Shown: piece by piece, positions 1 through 11,251 of the stretch
Layout: each line of letters opens with the position of its first letter
Numbering within the stretch: position 1 is the first letter of the stretch
Notes under the pieces: model-generated
Told to the model about the DNA's origin: nothing
The model's input: the letters and a program-made list of their open reading frames with translations, nothing else
The model's database searches: none
Source of the DNA: Nanobdellota archaeon
GTDB taxonomy: Archaea; Nanobdellota; Nanobdellia; Woesearchaeales; JAHJBD01
DNA length: 32,048 nt
Assembly (NCBI GenBank): GCA_018813725.1
Contig: JAHJBD010000045.1
Coordinates: 1 to 32,048 of the forward strand
Reading direction: 5' to 3'
Position numbers and translations under genes: made by a program

Positions 1-274
1 CAGCTTGTTCTATGCCAGTCTCTGTAAGTTCAGCAAAAGAGCATCGTCCCTGGAACATACCCTTTGCATCTTCTCTAACATTGACTTCTGATTGTCCATG
101 TCTTACAAAAAAGAACTGATGCGAGGTTGGGTATCTGACACAGGTAGAAGGTACTATATTTCCCATCATCGTGCAGAGCTGTTCAGTGCAATATTCCATA
201 AGGTCCAGGTCATATGTAAGCGTACCGCAATTGTAACAATCCTTGTCAACCCTTGGAGGAGCTATTCCTATCAT
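1..274 (-). CDS. Histidine phosphatase superfamily protein (PGAM/CobC-like), N-terminal part only; gene runs off the left edge
   Basis: Not in the ORF track because there is no stop in the window. Reverse-complement translation from the ATG at 274..272 gives MIGIAPPRVDKDCYNCGTLTYDLDLMEYCTEQLCTMMGNIVPSTCVRYPTSHQFFFVRHGQSEVNVREDAKGMFQGRCSFAELTETGIEQA... The pattern RHG-x5-N ... QG ... LTE.G..QA is the histidine phosphatase signature (RHG codons at 103..95). The ATG overlaps the TGA of the upstream radical SAM gene (ATGA at 274..271). An internal Met start (MMGNIV) is also possible. Confidence 0.75.
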   Translation of the reverse strand, partial: MIGIAPPRVDKDCYNCGTLTYDLDLMEYCTEQLCTMMGNIVPSTCVRYPTSHQFFFVRHGQSEVNVREDAKGMFQGRCSFAELTETGIEQA

Positions 275-1098
275 CTTTTCATCCTCCCAGCAATAACCTT
301 TTCACGTTCGGCAATATTCCTGTTAATCTCATCCAATATATTTTGGTTCCATGTTTCTGGTTTCAGGATATTGCCTGCTTGTACATAATCCTCTCCTACA
401 GTAGTGTACATATTTCCGTCTGGCATGATGAACAGGTATGCGATGTCGTGTACTGGAACGCTGTATCTGACTGGGATTACTCCTGCAAATCTTTCCACAG
501 TCTTTTGAGCGACAGTTTCGAATTCTTCATAATCCAACCTAAACTTCTCAGGGTGTCTTCCAATAGCCTGATAGTAGTTTAATTTCCAGGTGAATCTTGG
601 ATTATCGGCATATTTTTTCAGGACTGCGCCAATATCGTCAAGAATGTCTTTATTCTTTTTTGTCACAACAGTCAGTACCTGGAAACTAATATCTGGATAT
701 TTGGAGGTTATATCTAATGCTTGCAGCACATTGGCAAAATGTCCTGGCTTCCTTGCTTGAGCATTAGTCTCATCGTTATAACCATCTAAACTGAAAGAGG
801 TCTTGTCAACATATGGCAGTATCTCTTTATGTCTTTGTCCCAAAAGATTCGTGTTTGTGAAAAGAAAAGTGGTCAAACCATCTTGTTTGGCCCTGTATAG
901 CATATCAGGAAGCTTATCTTCCAATAGGGGTTCTCCGCCAGTGAATACCAACTGTTTGACTCCATTTTCTGTTACAGCATCAATCACATCAATAGGCATA
1001 TCCTTCTTGTAGTCTGGCATATTTGAACCCCAACAGACGCCACAGTTCATGTCACACTTTCTGGTGACAATGTAGTCAACGCTATTTGGAAAGCTCAT
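271..1098 (-). CDS. Radical SAM enzyme with a single 4Fe-4S cluster, viperin(RSAD2)-like motif order
   Basis: 275-aa ORF. It has CDMNCGVC (CxxxCxxC, ~1033..1059) and the FTGGEPLL SAM-binding motif. There are no other cysteines, so no SPASM/twitch auxiliary cluster. Its landmarks are collinear with viperin as I recall it: SVDYIVTRKC..NCGVC, GGEPLL, FSLDGYNDE, NPRFTWKLNYYQ, DYEEFE, AYLFIMPDGNMY. Both ends overlap neighbouring genes by ATGA. Radical SAM membership is near certain; the viperin-like subfamily call is a hypothesis (~0.45). Confidence 0.88.
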   Translation of the reverse strand: MSFPNSVDYIVTRKCDMNCGVCWGSNMPDYKKDMPIDVIDAVTENGVKQLVFTGGEPLLEDKLPDMLYRAKQDGLTTFLFTNTNLLGQRHKEILPYVDKTSFSLDGYNDETNAQARKPGHFANVLQALDITSKYPDISFQVLTVVTKKNKDILDDIGAVLKKYADNPRFTWKLNYYQAIGRHPEKFRLDYEEFETVAQKTVERFAGVIPVRYSVPVHDIAYLFIMPDGNMYTTVGEDYVQAGNILKPETWNQNILDEINRNIAEREKVIAGRMKR

Positions 1099-2099
1099 CT
1101 CCAGAAAAAAGTCCCTCCTTTCTTTAGTCCTTCATATCTGACCTTGTCTTTTGGATTCTTGTATCCTGGGATGTATACTGTCGGCTCAAATGTTAAGAAT
1201 TCAAGACCTGTTGGCCGGTTATTATACCCTATCAAAGTCATCGCAGTTTTTAGGTGATGCGCAAACCCTTCATATAAGGAATTGATGGACTCCGCTTCCA
1301 TAAGTTGACCTTTTTGCCTTCTCGTCTTTATTGCAAAGGCTTGGGCATCTACTATGTATATCCCTGCTAGTGCCAACCAGTCTGGATCATCAACAACCCG
1401 GCGTGGCATGCAGGGGTGTTCATATATTCTTTGCTCTCTTTGATTGATCCTGGCAAATCTTGTGTGGCTGTCTTGATAATTTGCAAGTTCTTCTGCTAAT
1501 TCATCTTTTGTTCTGTTAGACCCATCTGATAATCTTCTGGCAAAAACCATCGCCTCTCTTTGGCTTTGGACCAATCCATGCAGTGCGTTAATGATGTCTG
1601 GAAAGTATACACCGAATTTTGCTCCGTCAACTAATGCAATATATTTTGGCGGTTTGACAAAATGCCTGATGAAAGTGACTGAGCCGTTTGATGCTGTTAT
1701 CTGCAACCCGTCAACCGAATGCATAGGTCTATGGTGCGCGTCATATAATTGGTCTTCAGACTGTAGTATGAAGCTAGTCCTATGTCCAAAGTTGTTATAC
1801 GGTGACAGTAGGTCCACATAAACTGGTTTTTGTTCTGCTAAAAGGTGAAGGTAGAAGGGTACTTCTTTAGGCACATCCTGCATCACGTTAGATAATGGCC
1901 TGTCACCATCAACCAATAAAGCTAGTGGTTTTGGCTGTTTGCAGTCTGCTCTCCTGCCTCTGCCGCCGCATTGGATAACGATAGCAAAATCATCAGAACG
2001 CATCAATTGCTCATATGTGGATAGCGCTTCTGTGCTTATCGGCGGTGTCCTATTTGCTTGGATGCATCTTTCGATGAGCTGATCGAGAGTTTTTGTCAT
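1095..2099 (-). CDS. Putative nucleotidyltransferase (UDP-sugar pyrophosphorylase/UDPGP-like N-terminal loop); otherwise uncharacterised
   Basis: The ORF track gives 1095..2111 with a TTG start; the first ATG (MTKTLDQ...) is at 2099. IVIQCGGRGRRADCKQPKPLALLV (~1952..1975 encodes QCGGRGRR) matches the GGxGxR...PK(P/S)L pyrophosphorylase loop of sugar nucleotidyltransferases. Later FILQSED...ASNGS...YIALVDGAKF loosely follows the UDPGP order. Its stop overlaps the radical SAM start (ATGA at 1098..1095). The CDS is confident; the function is low to moderate. Confidence 0.6.
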   Translation of the reverse strand: MTKTLDQLIERCIQANRTPPISTEALSTYEQLMRSDDFAIVIQCGGRGRRADCKQPKPLALLVDGDRPLSNVMQDVPKEVPFYLHLLAEQKPVYVDLLSPYNNFGHRTSFILQSEDQLYDAHHRPMHSVDGLQITASNGSVTFIRHFVKPPKYIALVDGAKFGVYFPDIINALHGLVQSQREAMVFARRLSDGSNRTKDELAEELANYQDSHTRFARINQREQRIYEHPCMPRRVVDDPDWLALAGIYIVDAQAFAIKTRRQKGQLMEAESINSLYEGFAHHLKTAMTLIGYNNRPTGLEFLTFEPTVYIPGYKNPKDKVRYEGLKKGGTFFWR

Positions 2100-2152
2100 T
2101 GAATTCACCAAATCTACGATATATTACGCTAATTTAGCATATATATCTATTC

Positions 2153-2177
2153 GATATAATTGATATATTGATATATC
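2153..2177. repeat. Three tandem 8-bp GATATAWT units (GATATAAT-T-GATATATT-GATATATC) in a divergent promoter region; candidate operator
   Basis: Read directly: 2153..2160, 2162..2169 and 2170..2177. The last unit, GATATATC, is a perfect palindrome. A fourth copy, GATATATT, lies at 2118..2125, and ATATATATC lies at ~2139..2147. The array sits immediately upstream of the TTTAAATA box of the AbrB-PhoU gene. The 2118 copy doubles as the likely TATA box of the minus-strand operon. Confidence 0.5.
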
Positions 2178-2188
2178 ATTTAGAAAGG

Positions 2189-2196
2189 TTTAAATA
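2189..2196 (+). promoter_or_regulatory. TATA box (TTTAAATA) of the AbrB-PhoU gene
   Basis: TTTAAATA ends 22 nt before the ATG at 2219. Many other genes in this window show the same spacing. Confidence 0.55.
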
Positions 2197-2218: not shown

Positions 2219-3136
2219 ATGAAAAGGAAGGTTATCAAGCAGGGGAATGGGACGCTTACTATGACCTTGCCAAAAAAGTGGGCAGATTCAGTGGGACTTA
2301 CCGAGAATTCAGAGCTTGACATAATTGAGCAAGGACATAGTATTCAAGTGACTAGTTCCTCTGCTCAGAAAGGAACACAGATTGAGATCTCATTAGACTC
2401 CAATAATCGTACTTACATCAGGCAGGTTTTAAATAATATCTACTTAACAGGTTATGATGAAGTAAATGTTATTGATGTAGAGCCAGGCAGCTTAAAGACC
2501 ATCCGTGAGGTTATAGAAGATTTGCTTGGGTATCAGATTATCCAGTATTCAAGGAATAGCTGTTTGATAAGGAACCTTTCTAAAGAGGATGATACTGAAT
2601 TTTCAGCTCTACTTCGAAGAATCTTCTTGTTAGTCAAATTGCAACTTGATCTTATGATAGAGGATTTTTCTGGCCAAAAATTAGATAATCATCAGCAATT
2701 ATTTGAGATTGGCAAGTCAATCCATAGGTTTGTTTATTACTGCAGAAGACTGTTGATCAAGACTAGGATGTTTTCTAATTACAAATCCACAAGAATGTAT
2801 CTATTGATAACTAGGTTATTAACAATATCTCATAGTGTTGAATATCTATATGATTCGTTATCAGGTAGTCCAGTCATATCTAAACAAGAGCTAGAGTATT
2901 GCAAGGATACTGCTGAATATTTTCAATTATTTTACAGTCTATTCTATCAGTTGAAACACAAGTCGATCTATAAATTATCAGAGGGTAAAGAAGATCTTTT
3001 AGATCAACGCTTGCTTAAATTGTTATCATCAAAGAGTTCCAATCATATCGTGATCCATTATTGTGCCCAGATAATCAGGGATATCGCTAGAAATGGAGGT
3101 ATTCTTTTTACTCTGAAGGACGAGCATCTTTCATAA
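2219..3136 (+). CDS. AbrB/SpoVT-domain DNA-binding regulator with PhoU-like helical C-terminal domain (archaeal PhoU-type regulator)
   Basis: The N-terminus MKRKVIKQGNGTLTMTLPKKWADSVGL...SELDIIEQGHSIQV has the swapped-hairpin AbrB/SpoVT pattern (RKVq.tGgs..vtLPKkW). The remaining ~230 aa is all-helical, as in archaeal AbrB-PhoU proteins. The 3' end overlaps the convergent kinase gene by 29 nt (3108..3136). Confidence 0.7.
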   Translation: MKRKVIKQGNGTLTMTLPKKWADSVGLTENSELDIIEQGHSIQVTSSSAQKGTQIEISLDSNNRTYIRQVLNNIYLTGYDEVNVIDVEPGSLKTIREVIEDLLGYQIIQYSRNSCLIRNLSKEDDTEFSALLRRIFLLVKLQLDLMIEDFSGQKLDNHQQLFEIGKSIHRFVYYCRRLLIKTRMFSNYKSTRMYLLITRLLTISHSVEYLYDSLSGSPVISKQELEYCKDTAEYFQLFYSLFYQLKHKSIYKLSEGKEDLLDQRLLKLLSSKSSNHIVIHYCAQIIRDIARNGGILFTLKDEHLS

Positions 3137-4907
3137 ATGCCCTAAAACCTTTTTTTAGATCTTCTGTGAATTCAAAAGCGCTATGATATCTGTCTTCTGG
3201 CTTGTATTGTAGGGTTTTATCAATTACCTTGGCAACTTCTGGGTGAACATGGCTATAATCTACAGTTACCTGTGAGAATTTATCAGAATCACTTACAATT
3301 GCAACTATCTCTGTTGAATCATCAGATATTGGGTGGTGTCCTGTGAGCATATGATATAAGATTGCTCCAACTGAATAAAGGTCTGAGGCAGGCGTTAATG
3401 CTTGTTCTTGGTTAAGCAATTCCGGGCTTGAGTATCTTCTAGAAGCATAACCTTTAACCTCATGTGAATCAGAAGATGTCAAGCCGAAATCAATCAGATA
3501 TGTGCCTTTAGGTCCAATTATAATATTATTCGGAGAAACGTCATTGTGAACATAACCTCTGCTATGTATACCCCCCAGGACCTCTAAAACATGTATAAAG
3601 TATTCTGCTACTGTAGCTATCGCGATGCTGGTTGGGTGTCCTGATCTTATAGATTCTAGATGGTCAGCTATAACCTTATCTAAGGATATGCCTTCTACAT
3701 ACTCATATTTATCACAATTGACTTTTTTATCCATGACTTTTATTGCTATGTCACCATAGAAATTAGGTACACCTTTTACACCAGTCAAATCGTGCATAAC
3801 AGAGAATTCTTTTTCAGAAATGTACGCCAGGCCTATCTCTGTCATCTGCCTCCTCCCAGATGGGCTGTCTGCTTCTTGTTTTGGCACTAGCATAACTTCA
3901 CAAATATTTTTTCCTTGTGTAGGAAGTTCTTTTCTTATCAGTATTGCTGTAAATGTGCTTCCGTCACCGATTTTCCTTTCAGTATTGTAGTCAGGAACAT
4001 ACATTGCAGCCAGCTGGACTAATTCCTGTTCATTGTTGCATTGTGCTTCAGAAATTAGTCGGTTTAGATTATCTAGGAAACCCTTATCGTGTGATATATC
4101 AGGTGGAAGTTGGTATATCTCCTTGAATAGATATTCAGTTACATAAGGGTGGTCTTGGCATTCCATTGTTATAGCTAGCCTTGTTGCAGAAGCCAAATAT
4201 TCTTTTACCTTAGGTATGTCGAATTCAGTTGGCATATCTGCTCTAAAGTAGAAACAACGATATTGTTCCGGTGATGTAGTCAGAAATATATCTACTATTT
4301 GCCTTGCAAAATCAAAATGATCCATCAATGCGGCAACATAATCAGTATTAATCTGGTCAAGCTTAATTCTTCTTGCATGTTTGTCTGAAGTATCGGCTAC
4401 TGTCCTAACAAACTGGACAACCCTCTTGTTAGCAAGATCATGCACTCTATTTTCAAGCATTTGTTCTAGACCGCGGTTTGTGTATAAGTGTTCTCTAGGA
4501 GATGTGCATATTATATGTATAAGCTCTTCAGCATAACCTTCAATACGCGCATGACTTCCATAGTATCTTTCATCTTGGTTGTCTAGTTCACCTAAAACAT
4601 ATTGCCTGAATTTAAATCCGTCTGGGACAGCATGTGGTAGGCCGTCTGGCCTAAACCAGTAGTTATAAGATTCTACAACAGCTTCCGGAAGGTCTCTTTG
4701 AGCATTATTGAATGCTTCTATTATAGCATTATCACTGCATTCTTGTGAGAGTACAGTAACTAACCTTTCTATGTTGTCTAATATTTGCTCTCTTTTATCT
4801 GGGTCAAGGTGAGCACCATCTAAAACTAAATGATTTATTGTCTCGTGGATAGGTGCCAGCTGTGCTGCCAGTGCATCGTATTCTAGGCTGTAGATTGTAT
4901 TGATCAT
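3108..4907 (-). CDS. Hanks-type (eukaryotic-like) Ser/Thr protein kinase, non-RD, with ~345-aa N-terminal domain of unknown function
   Basis: The C-terminal ~250 aa carries the full kinase motif set: IGDGSTFTA (Gly loop), VMLVPK (Lys), HNDVSPNN (catalytic loop, ~3531..3551), IDFGL (DFG, ~3483..3497), YSSPELL (APE-like), DLYSVGAILYHMLTG, and PEDRY (subdomain XI Arg). I place the start at the Met of MINTIYSLEY (4907..4905), whose ATG overlaps the TGA of the NACHT gene. The longer track ORF (to 5039) would overlap that gene by 136 nt. Confidence 0.85.
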   Translation of the reverse strand: MINTIYSLEYDALAAQLAPIHETINHLVLDGAHLDPDKREQILDNIERLVTVLSQECSDNAIIEAFNNAQRDLPEAVVESYNYWFRPDGLPHAVPDGFKFRQYVLGELDNQDERYYGSHARIEGYAEELIHIICTSPREHLYTNRGLEQMLENRVHDLANKRVVQFVRTVADTSDKHARRIKLDQINTDYVAALMDHFDFARQIVDIFLTTSPEQYRCFYFRADMPTEFDIPKVKEYLASATRLAITMECQDHPYVTEYLFKEIYQLPPDISHDKGFLDNLNRLISEAQCNNEQELVQLAAMYVPDYNTERKIGDGSTFTAILIRKELPTQGKNICEVMLVPKQEADSPSGRRQMTEIGLAYISEKEFSVMHDLTGVKGVPNFYGDIAIKVMDKKVNCDKYEYVEGISLDKVIADHLESIRSGHPTSIAIATVAEYFIHVLEVLGGIHSRGYVHNDVSPNNIIIGPKGTYLIDFGLTSSDSHEVKGYASRRYSSPELLNQEQALTPASDLYSVGAILYHMLTGHHPISDDSTEIVAIVSDSDKFSQVTVDYSHVHPEVAKVIDKTLQYKPEDRYHSAFEFTEDLKKGFRAFMKDARPSE

Positions 4908-7882
4908 ATCAACCTCTCTGGTGGGATCAAGCCTTGTGGTTTTAATCCTGCATGAGTTGCTCCCAAAGCTTCGTGGAATGTTCCAGAAGATCGATAACCA
5001 TAATTTGGATTCTTTGCGGCATAGTTTTGAGGCAGCCATTGAAGAGCATCATGGATGAACCTTTCAGGGTCTATGGCACTAAGAGTTCCTGCAAACTTCT
5101 GCAAGTGCGCATAACGTGTCATGGCTTCTACTACTAATGGATAAATCTCTGGGTCAACTGACCTGCCTCTTTCTCTTCTTCTTCTGCATACTTGTCCCAA
5201 ATAATCAGCTACCCTTGAAGTGTCACTAAATTTATCACTGGTCCTTGCGTAATGGTGCTTAAAATACTCATTTGCTTCCTTAATATAACTTTTTGCTTTA
5301 TCTACCAATCTTTCATCGTCAAATCTTGAAAGTAGCTTACAGATATGGCCAAAACAGTTATTTTCCATTTGAGAAAGATTCACTAGCACATCTGGCAGGC
5401 CTGAATTGGTTCTTGCCTCAAGGGAAGCCAGATTGTTCTGATCTTCAAAACGGTATAGTACACTACTTGCATATTTACCATCTGCTTTTATGTAATCAAC
5501 TAATGCCTTGTACGCAGATACACTATCCCATGTGACTATATGATGTAAGTCGCTTTCATTAAAATCTTCTGCATTCATTGCATCCAAAACTATTTTTGCT
5601 AAGCGAGGATCTTGAGAAGATGGGGCAACTGCTGCCCACCATACATCCCTCAAATTATTGATATGTCTTGCGACAAACGCTTCCCCTTCAAATATGGGCT
5701 CATCCGTAAACCAATAAGCCAGCTTATCCTCTATCTGAAAAATGAGCTCTCCAGATTCTGGTAAAGCTCTTCTTATAAAGCTTCTACTTTCTGCGTGCGA
5801 TGCTGATTTCATCGCTACTTCAACTGCTTTGGTAAGGTATGCTGGATCAGTGTGGCATGACTGATATAGAAAATCAAACCTGTCTGGTTGGTCTGTTCTT
5901 GTCACTGCTATTACTTCTGCTTCTATATTTTGGTTTCCCTGTTCAATTGCCTTGGTTAAAGCTTCTTTCTTTTGAATGTATGTCGGTTCAACTGTGGTCG
6001 GTTCAGGTTTTTTTACAGTGGTTGTATGGATACTTATGTCAAATATACTTTTTTCTCTACGTTTTTCAGATTCTTTATCGTGTCTTGCTTGAAGTGCTGC
6101 GTAACAAGGATGATCTTTATCAATATCCAAGAATAATAAGGAGTCCATCACACTGCTTACATGTTCTGGAGAACCAAAACGAGCAGTATGAGCTGTTTCG
6201 TACATGATCTTGGCTAAGGTATTGGCATCGTTACCTACCTGGTAAATGAAATTATCAATCACTTCTGGTTCATCAAACTTTCTATCTTCATTGGAGGGTA
6301 ATCCCAAAACAGATTTATGGCCATAGATAAAACTGACAACTTTCGGATTGTAGCCCATGGCCTGGAAAAGGCCAACCTTTCTGCGGGCTGGATCATTTGT
6401 GCCTGGCTTGTTTTCGGTAAATCTAATCCTGTTTAGCTCATCAATTATCTTCTTGCATATTGCTTCCCTTTGAGCGTATGGCTTTGTAGGTGCTGAATGT
6501 GTTAGCATATCACAAGCCATGAAGAAGTTTGAATTGAAAGGATTGTATGCTTCAGGATGTGAATACGAAATGCCCATAAAAACTTCTGCAAAACCATTAT
6601 TTTGGTGCATAGCGAAATATGGTTCAAGCATTGTTTCTATCAAGGCATCTAATTCTCTTGGTTGCAGTAATCCTGATAAGAAAATCATTGTCTGATCCCA
6701 TGCTGGAAGAAGCCCCCTATTTGGCCCATCTATCAGTTGAGTGCTGAACCAACGTGTTGCTGGTTCTCGGAAAGACACATAATCTTCCCAAACCTGTTGA
6801 GTTGTAATGTGACCCTCCCTCACCTCTTTTGCTATATGCCTTGCTGCAAAGTATTCTTGCAGTGTCCTATGCATAAACTGTATCCTGCTATTTGTGAATG
6901 TCACAAGGTTACTGCCCATCACTACAGGTAATACCTCTGAAAGGTATTCTCCATAGCTCTGTCTTAAATTTTCTAAGATTTTTGCTTCATTAGCAGGTGT
7001 ATCTGCTAATTGAGGGTCTGTGTGTAATTGGAATCCAATTTCTGCCATAACATCCAGAGCATCTTGTGACAATTTTCTGTTTTTGTCTATCTTTTCCCTA
7101 TCTGCAAACTCTTCTTCTACGATCTGGCGGTACAGGTGTGCAATATTTGTCACATTAAATGGCCTATGCTGCAGGAAGGCTCTTTCATATAATCTTGTTA
7201 CAAAACTTAGTAATAATGGATTTGTGCAGAAATCTAATAGGTTACTGTCTTGTTTAATTGTTTCATATAATCCTCTATAATCAAATGGCGACTGCTTGTA
7301 TTTTTCTTTTAAGAATCTTTCAATATCTCTGATCTTTGCTGGCTGGAGTACATATTCATCAAATCCGTTAAATCCAGTCTTGGTATTAGGTCTTGTTGAG
7401 ACCATAACTGGAAACCTTGCATTATTTATCTGTTCAATCAACCTTTGCTTTTCAAGAGCTACTTCGTCTAAACCGTCTAGAAAAACAGCAAACTTGCCTG
7501 TATCAAGCAGATGTGTTGTAACTTGGGCAAAATCAGGAAGCCTTGTTTGTCTTACGATAAACTCTTCTAGGGGTGAACCATCGTATTCAGATAATCTTAT
7601 ATAGATTGGCACTTTGCTCTCTTTTAAAGCAGCTTTCTGAAGGGCAACACTTTTACCTGATCCTGGTGGTCCAACTAATAATGTCCTTTGGGTTTGAATA
7701 TAACTGAGCGGCTGAATATGCTCATTTTTATTTCTAACTTCTAGGTCAAGAGAACAATCGCCTAGTGGAATAATCGTTGGCGCTACCCTACGAAGCCTAT
7801 CTTCTAATGTTGACCTAATTTGGTGTTCAACTTCAAATTCTGGAGTAGATACTCTGAGAAGTTCTGCATGGATTTTGCGCAA
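4904..7882 (-). CDS. NACHT-family STAND NTPase (NLR-like) with ~590-aa helical C-terminal region and no N-terminal effector domain
   Basis: Motifs in canonical NACHT order: Walker A LLVGPPGSGKS (~7651..7680), Walker B FAVFLDGLDEV, VMVSTRP, TNPLLLSF, and FMHRTLQEYFAA (winged-helix signature). The P-loop starts at about aa 70, so there is no room for a fused effector. The only canonical in-frame start upstream of the P-loop is the TTG at 7882. There is no in-frame ATG or GTG between the upstream stop (7930..7928) and the P-loop. Confidence 0.88.
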   Translation of the reverse strand: MRKIHAELLRVSTPEFEVEHQIRSTLEDRLRRVAPTIIPLGDCSLDLEVRNKNEHIQPLSYIQTQRTLLVGPPGSGKSVALQKAALKESKVPIYIRLSEYDGSPLEEFIVRQTRLPDFAQVTTHLLDTGKFAVFLDGLDEVALEKQRLIEQINNARFPVMVSTRPNTKTGFNGFDEYVLQPAKIRDIERFLKEKYKQSPFDYRGLYETIKQDSNLLDFCTNPLLLSFVTRLYERAFLQHRPFNVTNIAHLYRQIVEEEFADREKIDKNRKLSQDALDVMAEIGFQLHTDPQLADTPANEAKILENLRQSYGEYLSEVLPVVMGSNLVTFTNSRIQFMHRTLQEYFAARHIAKEVREGHITTQQVWEDYVSFREPATRWFSTQLIDGPNRGLLPAWDQTMIFLSGLLQPRELDALIETMLEPYFAMHQNNGFAEVFMGISYSHPEAYNPFNSNFFMACDMLTHSAPTKPYAQREAICKKIIDELNRIRFTENKPGTNDPARRKVGLFQAMGYNPKVVSFIYGHKSVLGLPSNEDRKFDEPEVIDNFIYQVGNDANTLAKIMYETAHTARFGSPEHVSSVMDSLLFLDIDKDHPCYAALQARHDKESEKRREKSIFDISIHTTTVKKPEPTTVEPTYIQKKEALTKAIEQGNQNIEAEVIAVTRTDQPDRFDFLYQSCHTDPAYLTKAVEVAMKSASHAESRSFIRRALPESGELIFQIEDKLAYWFTDEPIFEGEAFVARHINNLRDVWWAAVAPSSQDPRLAKIVLDAMNAEDFNESDLHHIVTWDSVSAYKALVDYIKADGKYASSVLYRFEDQNNLASLEARTNSGLPDVLVNLSQMENNCFGHICKLLSRFDDERLVDKAKSYIKEANEYFKHHYARTSDKFSDTSRVADYLGQVCRRRRERGRSVDPEIYPLVVEAMTRYAHLQKFAGTLSAIDPERFIHDALQWLPQNYAAKNPNYGYRSSGTFHEALGATHAGLKPQGLIPPERLI

Positions 7883-7978
7883 TATTTCTGCTTCTATTTG
7901 GCTCTCAGTTTCACTGATTTTTATCGCCTATAATATATAAATGAACGTGACCTTATAAACCTTAACAAGTGCTCATGA

Positions 7979-8018: not shown

Positions 8019-8201
8019 ATGCCAATCGTAGAAGTTAAGATGTGGTCAGGTAGGACTGAGGAACAAAAGGAACAGATAATCCAAGGTATTACAAAAGTAC
8101 TTGAGGATGTTGGTGTTCCTGCTGAAAAGACTACTGTAATAATCACAGATTATCCTAAGTCTAATTGGGGAACTAAAGGAGTGCAAGCTTCTAAACTATA
8201 G
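8019..8201 (+). CDS. 4-oxalocrotonate tautomerase family protein
   Basis: 60 aa with the catalytic Pro-1 (MPIVEVKMW..) and the typical beta-alpha-beta length and pattern (...EEQKEQIIQGITKVLEDVGVPAEKTTVII). Confidence 0.8.
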   Translation: MPIVEVKMWSGRTEEQKEQIIQGITKVLEDVGVPAEKTTVIITDYPKSNWGTKGVQASKL

Positions 8202-9455: not shown

Positions 9456-9844
9456 GCTGCTTTCTTCAGCTTTATTGTTGTTTTTAATGCTTCTTCTTCC
9501 AGGTGATGCAGATGTTCTGCAAACTGCATTAAAGATCCTGTTTCCCTTTCCATCCGATCTACTGTCTCTTCTACATGCTGTATGTCTGTGAGAATATAAC
9601 TCTTATCTCTTTTATGCTGGATATCTGCAATCAATGTCCTTACAACAATATTATACCTTTCGATTGAGTAATGAAGACTGTGTGCTTGTTGTGAGAAGTG
9701 CTGTAATTGAGCGTTTGAGAGGGAAATTGCAGCTAAATGCGCTTGGATCTCTTGCATCATCTTGCTAAAATTTGGTTGATTTGCTTTAAGGTGCTGGATT
9801 ATAGCTTTTTTCCTTTTTCCAAAGTCTGTCTTTATTATTCCCAT
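9452..9844 (-). CDS. Hypothetical coiled-coil protein
   Basis: The track ORF (to 9856) starts at a TTG. The ATG at 9844 is preceded by GGGTGA (SD-like) and a TATTTAAA box ~30 nt upstream. Helical, His/Gln-rich, with no recognisable motif. Its stop overlaps the convergent lysA stop. Confidence 0.5.
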   Translation of the reverse strand: MGIIKTDFGKRKKAIIQHLKANQPNFSKMMQEIQAHLAAISLSNAQLQHFSQQAHSLHYSIERYNIVVRTLIADIQHKRDKSYILTDIQHVEETVDRMERETGSLMQFAEHLHHLEEEALKTTIKLKKAA

Positions 9845-9947
9845 TTTATCACCCAAATTATGCCATACTTAATGAGTTTAAATATTTTATGTTGGTAGAT
9901 ATATTATAAGGAAACTGTCATTTTTTTGTTTTATTAATAACGATAAT

Positions 9948-9956
9948 CTTATAAAT
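9948..9956 (+). promoter_or_regulatory. TATA box (CTTATAAAT) of gdh
   Basis: Ends 21 nt before the ATG at 9978. Confidence 0.5.
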
Positions 9957-9977
9957 CAACAGTATTTTCAAAGCTTT

Positions 9978-11251
9978 ATGACACAGCCAAATCCGCACGA
10001 AGCAGCAAAGGAAACTATAAACCAGGTAGCTGATATACTTAAATTAGATGACTGGGTCAGGGAAAGCCTTCTAAACACTCACCGAGAGATAAAGGTAAGT
10101 TTTCCAGTTGAGATGGACGATGGGACCGTAAAGGTTTTTACTGGATACAGGGTACAGCATAATCATATGATGGGACCTTTCAAAGGAGGCATCAGATATC
10201 ACTGGGATGTGAACCTGGATGAGGTAAGGGCATTAGCCACATGGATGACTATTAAGACTTCTGTATTGGACCTTCCACTTGGTGGAGGGAAAGGCGGAGT
10301 TATCTGCAATCCAAAAGAAATGTCAAAGAAAGAGCTTGACAAGATGACAAGAGGATTTGCAAGAAGGATAGCTCCAGTCATAGGTCCACTTGTAGATATA
10401 CCTGCACCTGATGTTTACACAACCGCTGAGATTATGGGCTGGATCGCTGATGAATACTCAAGATGTTCTGGGAAAAAGTCTCCTGGAGTAATAACTGGAA
10501 AGTCAATTAAAGATGGTGGATCAGAAGGCAGGGTTGAAGCAACTGGCAGAGGCGGCCTTTTTGTACTGCAAAAATATCTTAAAGAGATTGGTGATAATCT
10601 TAAAGGTAAAACAATCGCTATCCAAGGTTTTGGTAATGCTGGTTCAATTTTTGCAAGGCTTGCTTTTGAATCTGGAGCAAAGATAATTGCAGTTTCTGAT
10701 TCAAGCGGTGCGATAATAAATGAGCAAGGGCTTGATATCCTTGCTGTAATCAAACATAAAGAAAAGACCCGCAAAGTTGGGGATTTTCCTGGTGCAAGGA
10801 ATTCAAGCAATGAAAGTATCCTTGAGATGAAATGTGATGTGCTTGTACCGGCAGCTTTAGAAAATGTGATTGTCAGGGAGAACGCAAGTAAGATCAAGGC
10901 TAAACTTATATTAGAGCTCGCCAATGGTCCTGTTAGTTCAGCTGGACAAAAGGCTCTTGAGAAAAAAGGAACTGTAGTAATACCAGATGTACTAGCTAAT
11001 GCTGGCGGTGTTCAGTATCTTATTATGAATGGGATCAAAACCTGAAGAATGAACATTGGACAGAAGATGTGGTTAATCAAAAACTTCAAAAGAGGATTGA
11101 GAAGAATACTAAAGAGGTAATTGAGACTGCTGAAAAATACAAGGTCAATCTTAGGCTTGGCGCTTATATCTTGGCAATAAGCAGGATCGCTAAGAAAGCC
11201 CATAATGAGCTTAACCTTAATCATTATATATGCATGAAGGATCTTTTGTAA
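9978..11251 (+). pseudogene. gdhA: Glutamate dehydrogenase interrupted by a 1-nt frameshift near 11010-11012 (pseudogene or sequencing error)
   Basis: Frame 1 (9978..11045) has KGGIRYH, LGGGKGG (catalytic Lys) and the GFGNAGS Rossmann motif. After ANAGGV it degenerates into QYLIMNGIKT*. Shifting one base at 11012 restores SVSYYEWDQNLKNEHWTEDVVNQKLQKRIEK...VNLRLGAYILAISRIAKKAHNELNL, the canonical GDH C-terminus, which includes track ORF 11069..11251. A missing T in GGTGT(T)TCA would fix it. Confidence 0.85.

What the first reader, a model, noticed from the sequence alone, without database searches (positions are those of the whole stretch)
3108..7882. Effector-less NACHT (NLR-like) NTPase translationally coupled to a non-RD Hanks-type Ser/Thr kinase
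Seen in sequence: the 992-aa protein has the full NACHT motif series (GPPGSGKS, FLDGLDEV, VSTRP, NPLLLSF, FMHRTLQEYFAA). Its P-loop starts at about residue 70, so it has no fused N-terminal effector, and a ~590-aa helical C-terminal region follows. Its TGA overlaps the ATG of the next gene (ATGA at 4907..4904). That gene encodes a protein whose C-terminal ~250 aa holds every catalytic kinase motif: Gly loop, VMLVPK Lys, HNDVSPNN, DFG, SPE, DLYSVG, and the subdomain XI Arg. It is therefore predicted to be active. The catalytic loop reads HND rather than HRD, so it is a non-RD kinase. Established knowledge: bacterial and archaeal STAND/NACHT proteins (Avs, bNACHT) are antiviral sensors that normally carry a fused effector, and in eukaryotes NLRs signal through partner kinases (NOD1/2-RIPK2, plant NLR-kinase pairs). 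Inference: the kinase is the in-trans effector or signal relay of the NACHT sensor. That would make this a two-gene split NLR-kinase module in an archaeon, next to a viperin-like cassette. I am not aware of a characterised two-gene NACHT plus eSTK defence system.
Basis: partly seen in the sequence, partly recalled or inferred. Interest (0 to 1): 0.8.

Follow-up and report, generated by a model that had tools for sequence, protein, structure and literature searches.

The report
Split NACHT sensor–kinase operon in DPANN archaea
A NOD-like (NACHT) ATPase with no effector domain of its own and a protein kinase are made from one overlapping two-gene operon that recurs in tiny symbiotic (DPANN) archaea, always tail-to-tail with an AbrB-type DNA-binding regulator; this points to a sensor–kinase–regulator relay, but its role in virus defence is unproven.

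Summary
Window 4904-7882(-) encodes a 992-aa NACHT NTPase with at most 70 residues before its P-loop and an all-helical HEAT-like tail. Its TGA overlaps the ATG of a 599-aa protein (3108-4907, -) made of a new ~300-aa helical domain plus a Hanks-type, non-RD kinase.

Both proteins look like orphans in word-indexed searches. Exhaustive HMMER and locus mining found four more independent NACHT→kinase pairs in DPANN archaeal contigs, at 23-34% identity, each with overlapping or abutting stop and start codons. The pairing is therefore conserved.

- In all five loci the kinase gene overlaps, tail-to-tail, an AbrB/SpoVT-domain ~300-aa protein.
- That protein family is multi-copy in DPANN, and its tail-to-tail slot holds 11 of 13 detected Hanks kinases (P≈3e-11).
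- The AbrB gene sits behind a near-invariant ~70-nt bidirectional promoter/operator (window 2125-2196). In the window this also faces a nucleotidyltransferase-like gene, a viperin-like radical-SAM gene and a His-phosphatase gene.

Best model: NACHT sensor → kinase → AbrB regulator → cargo operon. Defence is not shown: the flanks carry no other recognised defence system (only weak CARF/CasR/Csa3-type regulator hits, left unresolved), and no relatives were found on viral contigs. Fused kinase–NACHT proteins are already known, so this is a new variant of a known kind.

The parts
4904..7882 (-). NACHT-HEAT STAND NTPase gene (992 aa, TTG start)
   Evidence: ORF and translation. Motifs located. Family alignments. 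AlphaFold2 model with pLDDT 74.7, whose top Foldseek hits are NOD2, NLRC4 and NLRP3.
7688..7882 (-). Short N-terminal segment (aa 1-65): two helices with the conserved motif P-E-F-E; no effector domain
   Evidence: Alignment A1 and the five-way alignment. Helices 2-12 and 14-31 in the model.
6707..7687 (-). NACHT module (NBD-HD1-WHD, aa 66-392) with Walker A, Walker B, sensor-1 Arg, NPLLL and the WHD His
   Evidence: (NLRC4 residues 171-465).
4907..6706 (-). All-helical HEAT/ARM-like solenoid (aa 393-992), the presumed sensor; homologous in L002 and L004 but replaced in L011 and L019
   Evidence: Exhaustive HMMER hits P0193, P0194 and P0196. alphaRep/HEAT hits. CRM1, importin and beta-catenin matches. 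Pairwise bit scores.
4904..4907 (-). ATGA stop/start overlap between the NACHT and kinase genes
   Evidence: Equivalent overlap or a 1-nt gap in L002, L004, L003/L011 and L019.
3996..4907 (-). Kinase N-terminal domain (aa 1-304): new helical domain with motifs FYNYWFRPD..PDG.DF, RRK.LD.IG and FLDNL.RL..E..C
   Evidence: No Pfam or PDB match. Alignments A5 and A6. Detected only in NACHT-linked kinases plus P0195.
3108..3995 (-). Hanks-type Ser/Thr kinase domain (aa 305-599 plus stop), non-RD, catalytic loop HNDVSPNN
   Evidence: Pfam Pkinase 6e-23. PDB sequence hits StkP and PknB. Five-way alignment of catalytic residues. AlphaFold2 model plus Foldseek, PknB TM ~0.75.
2219..3136 (+). AbrB/SpoVT(MazE)-domain protein, 305 aa; convergent with the kinase gene, 3' ends overlapping by 29 nt (3108-3136)
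   Evidence: Pfam MazE_antitoxin 1.5e-6. Orthologues occupy the same position in all five loci. 79 DPANN loci found. Slot statistics.
2125..2196 (.). Near-invariant intergenic block: bidirectional promoter with central operator GATATAATTGATATATTGATATATC (2153-2177), TTTAAATA box (2189-2196) facing the AbrB gene, and CATATATATCT (2138-2148) facing the divergent operon
   Evidence: alignments, no covariation; unique in the window; the same 25-mer in 9 other distinct AbrB loci; no Rfam family.
1095..2111 (-). Nucleotidyltransferase-like protein (338 aa), first gene of the divergent cargo operon
   Evidence: GG.G.R...PKP motif in alignment A7. Weak IspD, ManC and UAP hits. NTP_transf_3 2e-4 in one member. 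Orthologues in L002, L004, L016, L021 and L049.
271..1098 (-). Viperin-like radical-SAM enzyme (275 aa), start overlapping the preceding gene
   Evidence: PADLOC pVip 4e-24. NCBIfam viperin_w_prok 71 bits, below the cut-off of 180. Viperins are among the best PDB hits, E 2e-8 to 2e-6. 43% identical orthologue in L002.
1..274 (-). Partial histidine-phosphatase-like ORF (RHGQSEVN), cut by the contig end
   Evidence: Translation. His_Phos_1 genes lie in the same operon in L002, L004 and L049.

Best explanation
This is one copy of a cassette specific to DPANN archaea, and it most likely works as a phospho-relay.

Shown:
- A NACHT-HEAT STAND NTPase without an effector domain and a non-RD Hanks kinase are encoded by one operon with overlapping stop and start codons.
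- That pair is conserved in five divergent loci.
- The kinase carries a dedicated ~300-aa N-terminal domain. Wherever the upstream gene could be read in full (five loci), that gene is a NACHT gene.
- The kinase gene always overlaps, tail-to-tail, an AbrB-domain protein gene.
- The AbrB gene has a near-invariant bidirectional promoter/operator.

Inferred:
- The HEAT-like solenoid of the NACHT protein binds a ligand, which triggers nucleotide exchange and oligomerisation, as in NLRs.
- The oligomer recruits and clusters the kinase through its N-terminal domain. Induced proximity then activates it; a non-RD kinase should not need activation-loop phosphorylation.
- The kinase phosphorylates the AbrB-domain regulator and possibly other proteins.
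- That changes occupancy of the operator at 2153-2177, and with it expression of the regulator gene and of the divergently transcribed cargo operon. In this window the cargo is a nucleotidyltransferase-like enzyme, a viperin-like radical-SAM enzyme and a histidine phosphatase.

The biological trigger is open. I put roughly 40% on an antiviral or anti-invader signal and the rest on a host, nutrient or stress signal.
For: Pair conservation:
- Window, L002, L004, L011 (an extension of L003) and L019 all have a NACHT gene followed by a kinase gene.
- The junctions are ATGA, TAA-A-ATG, ATGA, ATGGATGA and GTGGTAA.
- NACHT catalytic motifs are kept in all five. The kinase Asp, Asn, DFG-Asp, APE-Glu and subdomain-XI Arg are invariant, and all five kinases are non-RD.

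Coupling domain: my KINndom HMM hits only the NACHT-linked kinases and the N-domain-only protein P0195. AbrB-adjacent kinases that lack a NACHT partner also lack this domain.

AbrB link:
- The 3' ends overlap convergently by 6-29 nt in all five loci.
- 58 of 76 AbrB genes have a convergent neighbour.
- 11 of 13 HMM-detected Hanks kinases among 1,052 ORFs sit in that slot, binomial P 3e-11.
- Other occupants of the slot include LRR+APH and TPR+P-loop kinase proteins.
- AbrB similarity tracks kinase-domain similarity: the window pairs with L011 and L002 pairs with L004. The NACHT module groups differently.

Operator:
- A ~70-nt block is near-invariant although the flanking proteins share only 30-55% identity.
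- The 25-mer is found upstream of AbrB genes in 10 distinct loci, the window included.
- It is unique in the window.
- It shows no covariation and matches no Rfam family, so it reads as a DNA site rather than an RNA.

Structure: the NACHT model matches NOD2, NLRC4 and NLRP3 best, and the kinase model matches PknB.
Against: - No step of the relay has been tested. Every link between the proteins rests on gene order in metagenome-assembled contigs.
- There are only five NACHT-kinase loci, so the co-variation argument is anecdotal.
- The AbrB gene is convergent with the kinase gene, not co-transcribed with it. The adjacency could instead reflect transcriptional interference, or a recombination hot spot beside a conserved gene.
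- Some occupants of the AbrB slot are housekeeping genes: aEF2, and LeuRS with a 355-nt gap.
- The cargo operon varies. The viperin-like gene is present in only 2 of 5 NACHT-kinase loci.
- The window kinase and the L011 kinase lack the catalytic-loop lysine, so their activity may be low or atypical, resembling RIO or Bud32 kinases.
- No homotypic domain is shared between the kinase N-domain and the NACHT or AbrB proteins.
- The AlphaFold2 confidence for the N-domain is only partial.
Confidence: 0.5

Rival explanations
1. The pair is a self-contained antiviral abortive-infection system. The NACHT protein senses a viral protein, and the kinase is the in-trans killing effector that phosphorylates many cellular or viral proteins, as the Stk2 and PD-T4-6 kinases do. 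The AbrB neighbour plays no part in it.
For: - NACHT and STAND proteins are established phage sensors (PMC13581612; bNACHT preprint).
- Fused Pkinase-NACHT proteins exist, and Pkinase is listed as a bNACHT effector domain.
- The kinase domain matches the PD-T4-6, MAD6 and PglW defence-kinase models.
- The sensor C-terminus is swapped between loci, and paralogues without a NACHT module form tandem arrays. Both are typical of diversifying receptors.
- A viperin-like gene lies nearby in 2 loci.
Against: - The kinase-model matches cover only the generic catalytic domain.
- The NACHT protein matches no defence model at a meaningful score: EruA gives 23 bits against a cut-off of 1000, and PADLOC gives only a P-loop hit.
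- The flanks are housekeeping or unknown genes, not defence islands.
- No relatives were found on viral contigs.
- This model does not explain the strict AbrB tail-to-tail arrangement.
Confidence: 0.2
2. The pair is a non-immune signal-transduction module. It senses a host-derived, nutrient or stress cue, which matters for an obligate episymbiont, and it tunes expression of variable metabolic or cell-surface cargo genes. This resembles bacterial STAND and Hanks-kinase regulatory pairs.
For: - The module is fixed next to a transcription regulator that has a conserved operator.
- The cargo genes look metabolic: nucleotidyltransferase, His phosphatase, APH, HAD, PfkB and AsnC/TrmB regulators.
- Surrounding genes are housekeeping.
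- AfsK-AfsR and PknK are precedents for kinase-STAND signalling (from my own knowledge, not tested here).
Against: - The closest relatives of the radical-SAM cargo are viperins.
- Sensor swapping and paralogue arrays suggest diversifying selection.
- No ligand or pathway can be named.
Confidence: 0.25
3. The information flow is reversed. The kinase acts upstream and phosphorylates the NACHT protein to gate its oligomerisation, in the manner of AfsK→AfsR. The NACHT-HEAT protein then acts as a scaffold or output.
For: - The NACHT protein has no effector domain and the kinase has its own large N-terminal domain that could be a sensor.
- AbrB-adjacent kinases elsewhere carry their own accessory domains and work without a NACHT protein.
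Against: - The NACHT gene is first in the operon in all five loci.
- The N-domain was detected only in NACHT-linked loci, apart from one truncated, unresolved case. That fits a docking role better than an independent sensor.
- The HEAT-like solenoid is the element that varies between loci, as sensors do.
Confidence: 0.1
4. The adjacency has no functional meaning. It is a chance neighbourhood, or an artefact of gene calling or assembly.
For: Both proteins are singletons in the word-indexed 5.8-billion-protein search. All the data come from MAG contigs.
Against: - The order and the start/stop overlap are conserved in five loci at 23-34% identity.
- The same sequence was assembled independently in a second record.
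- The N-domain co-occurs with a NACHT gene in all five complete loci.
Confidence: 0.02

Closest known systems
Bacterial NACHT (bNACHT / NLR-related) antiphage proteins, including architectures with a fused N-terminal protein-kinase domain (Kibby et al., bioRxiv 10.1101/2022.07.19.500537; examples here P0198 and P0267)
   Same: The NACHT NTPase module has all its motifs, followed by a C-terminal helical-repeat sensor. A Ser/Thr kinase is the associated catalytic module.
   Different: - Here the kinase is a separate downstream gene rather than an N-terminal fusion.
- It carries a novel ~300-aa N-terminal domain and is non-RD, whereas the fused examples are canonical HRD kinases.
- The host is a DPANN archaeon.
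- No defence phenotype or defence-island context is known.
- The preprint says bNACHT genes are only rarely in operons.
Animal NLR-kinase partnerships: NOD1/2-RIPK2 and NLRP3-NEK7
   Same: A NACHT sensor signals through a separately encoded kinase. NOD2, NLRC4 and NLRP3 (the NLRP3 entry being its NEK7 complex) are the best structural matches of the NACHT model.
   Different: - There is no CARD or PYD adaptor domain here.
- The kinase N-domain is unrelated to CARD (no Pfam or PDB match).
- The similarity lies in logic, not in shared descent of the pairing.
- The interaction itself is untested.
NTP-dependent 'ternary' conflict systems and STAND systems with in-trans effectors (Kaur, Burroughs, Iyer and Aravind, eLife 2020, PMC7159879)
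   Same: These are multi-gene systems in which an NTPase switch is coupled to separately encoded effectors. S/T/Y kinases are among the commonest macromolecule-modifying effector domains.
   Different: - Those kinases are mostly catalytically disrupted and occur in actinobacteria and chloroflexi. Here the catalytic residues are conserved.
- No effector-associated (Death-like) adaptor domain is shared between the partners.
- There is no vWA or MoxR component.
Bacterial Hanks kinase-STAND regulatory pairs or fusions (AfsK-AfsR of Streptomyces; PknK of Mycobacterium). Recalled from my own knowledge.
   Same: A Ser/Thr kinase is functionally tied to a STAND NTPase, with transcription as the output.
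   Different: - Those STAND modules belong to the NB-ARC/MalT type, with SARP or LuxR DNA-binding domains on the same protein.
- Here the module is a NACHT without a DNA-binding domain, and the putative DNA-binding component (AbrB) is a third gene.
- The comparison was not tested here, apart from a weak NCBIfam AfsK hit on the kinase domain.
Kinase-based antiphage systems (Stk2, PD-T4-6, MADS MAD6, BREX PglW)
   Same: The kinase catalytic domain matches these models at 1e-30 to 1e-12.
   Different: The matches cover only the generic kinase domain. The accessory domains and partner genes differ, and none of those systems has a NACHT partner.

Membership tests
NACHT clade of STAND NTPases | Walker A GxxxxGK[ST] and Walker B hhhhDGhDE | tested here: met
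   GPPGSGKS@71 and FLDGLDEV@134. Both are kept in all five family members.
NACHT clade of STAND NTPases | Sensor-1 Arg, the NPLLL motif in the helical domain, and the winged-helix His (F-x-H-x-[ST]-x-Q-E-[YF]) | tested here: met
   VSTRP@161, CTNPLLLSF@219 and FMHRTLQEYFAA@336.
NACHT clade of STAND NTPases | Score above the Pfam PF05729 gathering threshold | tested here: not met
   The single sequence scores 15.3 bits against 26.7. The family profile, however, hits hundreds of PF05729 proteins at E down to 1e-28.
NACHT clade of STAND NTPases | NBD-HD1-WHD fold closest to NLR NACHT modules rather than to AP-ATPase, MalT or AAA+ modules | tested here: met
   The PDB profile search puts NLRC4 as the best NTPase. 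Foldseek with the AlphaFold2 model ranks NOD2, NLRC4, NLRP3, NLRP9 and NAIP5 at ranks 1-14.
Tripartite NLR/bNACHT architecture (effector-NACHT-sensor) | N-terminal effector or adaptor domain on the same polypeptide | tested here: not met
   At most 70 aa (70-95 in relatives) precede the P-loop, and these form two helices only.
Hanks-type (eukaryote-like) Ser/Thr protein kinases | Pfam Pkinase above threshold and a bilobal kinase fold | tested here: met
   82 bits against 31.7. The model matches PknB with target-normalised TM ~0.75.
Hanks-type (eukaryote-like) Ser/Thr protein kinases | Catalytic residues: beta3 Lys, alphaC Glu, catalytic Asp and Asn, DFG Asp, APE Glu, subdomain XI Arg | tested here: met
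   K343, E357, D456, N461, D473, E496 and R573. The Asp, Asn, DFG-Asp, APE-Glu and Arg are invariant in the five NACHT-linked kinases.
Hanks-type (eukaryote-like) Ser/Thr protein kinases | Canonical catalytic loop HRDLKxxN (the RD arginine and the Ser/Thr-specific Lys) | tested here: not met
   The window has HNDVSPNN. R is replaced by N, making it non-RD, and K is replaced by S. L011 has HNDFSPNN. L019 (HSDIKPDN) and L002/L004 (LKDVKLRN) keep the Lys but are also non-RD.
Known antiphage defence systems (Avs, bNACHT, EruA/HyoA, PADLOC models) | Match to a curated defence-protein model at its cut-off | tested here: not met
   EruA 23 bits against 1000 and HyoA 16 bits against 1200. PADLOC gives only mad8 at E 0.0076 on the P-loop.
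Known antiphage defence systems (Avs, bNACHT, EruA/HyoA, PADLOC models) | Genomic association with known defence genes or variable islands | tested here: not met
   Among 54 flank ORFs of L002, L004, L011 and L019, the only recognised defence enzyme is the pVip-like gene. Weak CARF3, CasR and Csa3 model hits (E 2e-7 to 6e-6) were not mapped to ORFs and are probably driven by HTH domains. The window flank is housekeeping. The sample is small, so enrichment was not tested statistically.
Known antiphage defence systems (Avs, bNACHT, EruA/HyoA, PADLOC models) | Protection against virus infection | not testable with these tools
   This needs an experiment.
Prokaryotic viperins (pVip), for the neighbouring radical-SAM gene | Curated NCBIfam viperin_w_prok cut-off and viperin as the closest relative | tested here: inconclusive
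   It is the best NCBIfam hit but scores 71 bits against a cut-off of 180. PADLOC pVip 4e-24. Viperins are among the best PDB hits, E 2e-8 to 2e-6; the top two entries are unnamed radical-SAM proteins. Substrate-binding residues were not checked.
AbrB/SpoVT/MazE swapped-hairpin DNA-binding proteins, for the convergent neighbour | N-terminal AbrB-type domain above the Pfam threshold | tested here: met
   PF04014 scores 28.5 bits against 24.7. 4 of 5 relatives also match. The C-terminal ~250 aa are unassigned, with one weak PhoU hit at E 0.015.

The most novel reading that the evidence does not exclude
The cassette is an inducible innate-immune transcription circuit in DPANN archaea. An NLR-like NACHT sensor detects a viral protein and activates a partner non-RD kinase. 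The kinase phosphorylates an AbrB-type transcription factor bound at an invariant operator, and this switches on a viperin-like nucleotide-modifying operon. In logic, this would be a prokaryotic counterpart of the eukaryotic receptor → kinase → transcription factor → viperin axis. It would differ from the constitutive, cell-autonomous effector fusions known from bacterial NLRs.
Probability: 0.12. Interest if true: 0.9.

Novelty: new variant of a known kind. Interest (0 to 1): 0.6.

Why it matters
Prokaryotic NLR-like proteins are known almost only as single polypeptides that carry their own effector. A conserved operon in which the NACHT switch hands its signal to a separately encoded, catalytically intact kinase would show that NLR-to-kinase signalling in trans exists outside eukaryotes. 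The kinase's dedicated docking domain, the third conserved partner (an AbrB-type regulator) and its invariant operator make the proposal concrete.

It would also give DPANN archaea, organisms with tiny genomes and almost no characterised signalling, a defined and testable sensory circuit. The binary interaction, the phosphotransfer and the operator binding can each be tested in vitro with synthetic genes.

The wider finding may matter beyond this locus. AbrB-domain proteins in DPANN are systematically paired tail-to-tail with repeat-containing kinases.

Tried and rejected
- Word-indexed homologue searches with each protein found only self-hits plus generic NACHT or kinase domains. A concatenated family profile added no family members either.
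- The search for related loci with the NACHT alignment found nothing in genome contigs or in viral contigs.
- The kinase N-domain alignment gave only one short fragment in JGI metagenomes and nothing in viral contigs.
- The AbrB alignment found nothing in viral contigs.
- The kinase N-domain has no Pfam hit and no PDB sequence hit. Its Foldseek list is swamped by kinase domains.
- I tested whether the kinase N-domain shares a homotypic adaptor domain with the NACHT protein or the AbrB protein, as effector-associated domains (EADs) do in conflict systems. hhalign gave probability below 1%, so I rejected the idea.
- I tested whether the conserved intergenic block is a structured RNA. It has no Rfam match and zero covarying pairs, so I rejected that in favour of a DNA operator/promoter.
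- I checked whether the operator also precedes the NACHT operon. It is unique in the window, so it does not.
- A toxin-antitoxin reading (MazE-like antitoxin with a kinase toxin) was set aside. The genes are convergent, not co-transcribed, and the kinase is of the Hanks type rather than the HipA type.
- The bacterial promoter/terminator scan is uninformative for an archaeon.
- Literature searches for DPANN+NACHT, EruA/HyoA and archaeal AbrB/PhoU/kinase found no description of this module.

Full report
**1. Check of the observation**

The window carries two long ORFs on the minus strand: 4904-7882 (992 aa, TTG start) and 3108-5039. The second ORF extends upstream of the sensible start.

The kinase call is secure.
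- Pfam Pkinase scores 82 bits against a threshold of 31.7.
- The best solved relatives are StkP and PknB.
- The AlphaFold2 model has a normal bilobal fold, with PknB as the top Foldseek match at target-normalised TM ~0.75.

The NACHT call is weak for the single sequence, at 15 bits and below Pfam's threshold. Four other lines support it.
- 70 distant hits are almost all annotated PF05729.
- A profile of the family hits NACHT proteins at 1e-28 to 1e-18.
- NLRC4 is the best NTPase among PDB sequences.
- The AlphaFold2 model (pLDDT 74.7) has NOD2, NLRC4, NLRP3, NLRP9 and NAIP5 as its best structural matches.

The C-terminal ~600 residues are all helix. They resemble HEAT/ARM solenoids such as alphaRep, CRM1, importin-beta and beta-catenin.

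The kinase domain begins near residue 305, so the preceding ~300 aa form a separate domain. The catalytic loop HNDVSPNN is non-RD, and it also lacks the loop lysine of Ser/Thr kinases. RIO and Bud32 kinases share that second feature, and they gave weak local hits.

**2. Origin and surroundings**

The identical proteins are recorded from a 'Nanoarchaeota archaeon' MAG, which is a DPANN archaeon. A second assembly (GCA_018823065.1, 7,238-bp contig, L001) carries the same genes.

From about 8000 onward the window is housekeeping: aspartate-family amino-acid biosynthesis, class I LysRS, dTDP-rhamnose genes and thymidylate metabolism.

To the left of the kinase lie four genes:
- A convergent AbrB/MazE-domain protein (2219-3136, +).
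- A 338-aa protein with no Pfam match (1095-2111, -).
- A radical-SAM enzyme (271-1098, -) whose best matches in PADLOC and NCBIfam are viperins, with viperins also among its best PDB hits; it falls below NCBIfam's cut-off.
- A truncated ORF carrying the histidine-phosphatase RHG signature.

**3. Is the pairing conserved?**

Both proteins are singletons in the word-indexed search of 5.8 billion proteins. I therefore sent an exhaustive HMMER search with a chimera of the two unassigned regions, the kinase N-domain plus the NACHT C-terminus. It returned five distant relatives:
- P0193 and P0196, full-length NACHT homologues.
- P0194, which matches the C-terminal solenoid only.
- P0197, a full-length kinase homologue.
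- P0195, which matches the kinase N-domain only.

Their contigs show the same order: a NACHT gene, then a kinase gene, then a convergent AbrB-domain gene. This holds in L002, L004 and L003.

I then anchored on the better-conserved AbrB protein and recovered 79 loci from species-representative genomes. Nearly all are labelled as DPANN lineages: Woesearchaeota, Pacearchaeota, Nanoarchaeota, Aenigmatarchaeota and Iainarchaeum. Scanning their ORFs with my own family HMMs extended L003 to a full NACHT gene (L011) and added L019.

That gives five independent NACHT→kinase pairs. Protein identity is 24-34% over the NACHT module and lower over the rest. The five junctions are ATGA, TAA-A-ATG, ATGA, ATGGATGA and GTGGTAA.

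**4. Anatomy of the family**

All five NACHT proteins keep Walker A, Walker B, the sensor-1 Arg, [NR]PL[LF]L and the winged-helix His. All have only 70-95 residues before the P-loop. Lack of an effector domain is a family trait, not a truncation.

The C-terminal solenoid is homologous among the window, L002 and L004. L011 and L019 carry an unrelated helical region instead.

NACHT-less paralogues, made of the winged-helix region plus HEAT repeats, form tandem arrays of five or six genes next to AbrB genes in other DPANN contigs.

All five kinases keep the catalytic Asp and Asn, the DFG Asp, the APE Glu, the subdomain-IX Asp and the subdomain-XI Arg. All five are non-RD, with catalytic loops beginning HND, HND, HSD, LKD and LKD. 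Three of them keep the loop lysine. They are probably active, although the window enzyme may be atypical.

The kinase N-domain has conserved motifs: FYNYWFRPD..PDG.DF, KKRD, RRK.LD.IG and FLDNL.RL..E..C. It has no Pfam or PDB relative. It is modelled as all helix with partial confidence.

My HMM finds this domain only in the five NACHT-linked kinases and in P0195 (found in L009, L010 and L090). P0195 is a kinase-less copy that follows a HEAT protein cut by the contig end. Kinases that sit next to AbrB genes without a NACHT gene lack the domain and carry other accessory regions. This co-occurrence is the main reason to read the N-domain as the NACHT-coupling module.

**5. The third component**

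In all five loci the kinase gene and the AbrB-domain gene converge and overlap by 6-29 nt. The AbrB family is multi-copy in DPANN MAGs.

Of 76 copies with at least 1.5 kb of downstream sequence, 58 have a convergent neighbour, usually within -37 to +30 nt. In the 79 loci (1.16 Mb, 1,052 ORFs), 11 of the 13 Hanks kinases my HMM detects occupy that one slot, with binomial P≈3e-11. Pfam finds two more divergent kinases there.

Other occupants of the slot:
- An LRR+APH phosphotransferase.
- A TPR plus P-loop kinase protein.
- An LRR protein.
- HEAT arrays.
- Large proteins with no match.
- Occasionally housekeeping genes.

Pairwise scores show that AbrB similarity follows kinase-domain similarity: the window pairs with L011, and L002 pairs with L004. 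The NACHT module instead groups the window with L002 and L004. This is suggestive only, given five loci.

**6. A near-invariant operator**

The region upstream of the AbrB gene is conserved at the nucleotide level far beyond the flanking proteins. A ~70-nt block (window 2125-2196) is almost identical in the window, L002, L004, L011, L025, L040 and L049.

The block contains three elements:
- CATATATATCT (2138-2148), 27 nt from the divergent gene's start codon.
- GATATAATTGATATATTGATATATC (2153-2177), which includes the palindrome TGATATATCA.
- AAAG.TTTAAATA (TATA-like, 2189-2196), 23 nt before the AbrB ATG.

The 25-mer, with two free positions, occurs once upstream of an AbrB gene in ten distinct loci, counting the window. 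It is unique in the window. It has no Rfam match and no covarying pairs.

I read it as a compact bidirectional archaeal promoter with a central operator, most simply for the AbrB-domain protein itself. The DNA-binding N-terminus of that protein (M[KR]RKVIKQGNGTLT.TLPK.W) is equally conserved. That reading is an inference; no binding was tested.

**7. The cargo operon**

The 338-aa protein belongs to a family with the nucleotidyltransferase signature (V.Q.GG.G.R...PKP). It gives weak but coherent hits to IspD, mannose-1-P guanylyltransferase and UDP-GlcNAc pyrophosphorylase.

The nucleotidyltransferase-like gene, the viperin-like radical-SAM gene and a histidine phosphatase recur together in L002 and L049. 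L004 has the first and third, plus an APH kinase.

L011 and L019 carry other, unassigned genes in that position. The cargo is therefore variable, and the viperin-like gene accompanies only 2 of the 5 NACHT-kinase pairs.

**8. Mechanism**

What is shown:
- Operon structure and conserved pairing.
- Conserved catalytic motifs in both enzymes.
- A kinase N-domain found so far only in NACHT-linked loci, with one truncated case unresolved.
- A fixed tail-to-tail AbrB gene.
- An invariant operator.

What is inferred: the solenoid senses a ligand and the NACHT protein oligomerises. The kinase is recruited through its N-domain and activated by proximity. It phosphorylates the AbrB regulator, and promoter output changes. 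I give this relay 0.5.

The rivals differ mainly in output or direction:
- The kinase as a direct killing effector of a defence system (0.2).
- A non-immune signalling role (0.25). This shares the relay mechanism but not the trigger.
- The kinase acting upstream of the NACHT protein, in the manner of AfsK-AfsR (0.1).
- Chance adjacency (0.02).

**9. Defence or not**

For a defence role:
- The family's relatives are immune sensors.
- The sensor region is swapped between loci and expanded in paralogue arrays.
- The radical-SAM gene is viperin-like.

Against it, or untested:
- No curated defence model is matched at a meaningful score.
- Of 54 flank ORFs in four loci, the only recognised defence enzyme in PADLOC is the pVip-like gene. 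The few weak CARF3/CasR/Csa3-type hits could not be resolved to ORFs.
- The neighbours are housekeeping or unknown genes.
- No relatives occur on viral contigs.

The defence label is therefore a hypothesis, not a finding.

**10. Comparison with known systems and novelty**

- Fused Pkinase-NACHT proteins exist. P0198 and P0267 have a canonical RD kinase at the N-terminus, and Pkinase is listed among bNACHT effector domains.
- S/T/Y kinases are common, mostly inactive, effectors in NTPase conflict systems.
- STAND-kinase regulatory pairs such as AfsK-AfsR and PknK are known. This comes from my own knowledge and was not tested here.

The library searches found no description of any of the following:
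- A split, co-translated NACHT→kinase operon with a dedicated coupling domain.
- Its restriction to DPANN archaea.
- Its fixed association with an AbrB-type regulator and an invariant operator.

I class it as a new variant of a known kind, with interest 0.6.

**11. Caveats**

- All sequences come from metagenome assemblies.
- The family is rare: five full loci plus fragments.
- Several taxonomic labels, such as 'uncultured Methanosarcinales' from automated binning, are probably wrong.
- The neighbour statistics use HMMs that I built from 2-5 sequences.
- The N-domain model rests on three family sequences, because locus-derived sequences could not be submitted.

Noticed in passing
window 2125-2196 (operator 2153-2177); also L002 7897-7921, L004 7671-7695, L011 9935-9959, L016 6643-6667, L021 9777-9801, L025 6663-6687, L040 9934-9958, L049 9935-9959, L059 3043-3067: A ~70-nt intergenic block upstream of the AbrB-domain gene is almost invariant across DPANN loci whose flanking proteins share only 30-55% identity. 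It contains two TATA-like boxes facing opposite ways and a central repeat/palindrome, GATATAATTGATATATTGATATATC. It shows no covariation and has no Rfam match, so it looks like a DNA operator.
   Followed up: partly
window 1-2111 (-): 1095-2111, 271-1098, 1-274: The 'viperin-like cassette' is a three-gene operon: a divergent nucleotidyltransferase-like protein (GG.G.R...PKP motif), a viperin-like radical-SAM enzyme, and a histidine phosphatase (RHGQSEVN, cut by the contig end). The same trio occurs in L002 and L049. A viperin-like enzyme paired with a nucleotidyltransferase and a phosphatase, rather than with a nucleotide kinase, is unusual.
   Followed up: partly
79 loci L011-L089 (AbrB gene usually at ~10001 of each locus): The AbrB-domain ~300-aa protein is a multi-copy DPANN family. 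58 of 76 copies have a convergent neighbour whose end overlaps or nearly overlaps theirs. Those neighbours are enriched for Hanks kinases of varied architecture (11 of 13, P≈3e-11) and also include LRR+APH, TPR+P-loop kinase, LRR and HEAT proteins. The C-terminal ~250 aa of the AbrB protein are unassigned, apart from one weak PhoU hit.
   Followed up: partly
L005 3207-16296 (also L006-L008, L021, L040, L042, L047, L070): Tandem arrays of 3-6 large paralogous proteins share the winged-helix region and HEAT-like solenoid of the NACHT family but lack the NTPase domain. They lie next to AbrB genes. One array is headed by a 754-aa His_Phos_1 protein.
   Followed up: partly
L009 1076-2185, L010 133-1242, L090 742-1254: P0195 is a 369-aa protein made of the kinase N-terminal domain alone, with no kinase domain. 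It is encoded directly after a HEAT-repeat protein whose N-terminus is cut by the contig end. It could be an adaptor or a decoy version of the coupling domain.
   Followed up: no
L016 ~6690-6830 and L021 ~9830-9980: Between the conserved operator and the AbrB start, these two loci share a further conserved ~100-nt segment (…TTTTTGAA[GC]CTCAAAATTCGTAGAATTTTGTTGGTT…) that is absent from the other loci. It may be an inserted element or a small RNA.
   Followed up: no
flank ORFs of L002, L004, L011, L019 (alignment A11): The PADLOC model 'CARF3--CARF' matched 4 of 54 flank ORFs (best E 2e-7), and CasR and Csa3 matched 1-2 each. The hits are probably driven by HTH domains. The window's AbrB protein gave no PADLOC hit.
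   Followed up: no
window 8019-8201 (+): A 60-aa ORF (MPIVEVKMWSGRTEEQKEQI…) looks by eye like a 4-oxalocrotonate-tautomerase-family protein. It lies between the NACHT promoter region and the Orn/DAP decarboxylase gene.
   Followed up: no
window 7927-7941 (minus strand TTTATATATTATAGG): A TATA-like element lies 45 nt upstream of the TTG start of the NACHT gene, as a candidate promoter of the NACHT-kinase operon. The AbrB operator sequence is not present there.
   Followed up: partly
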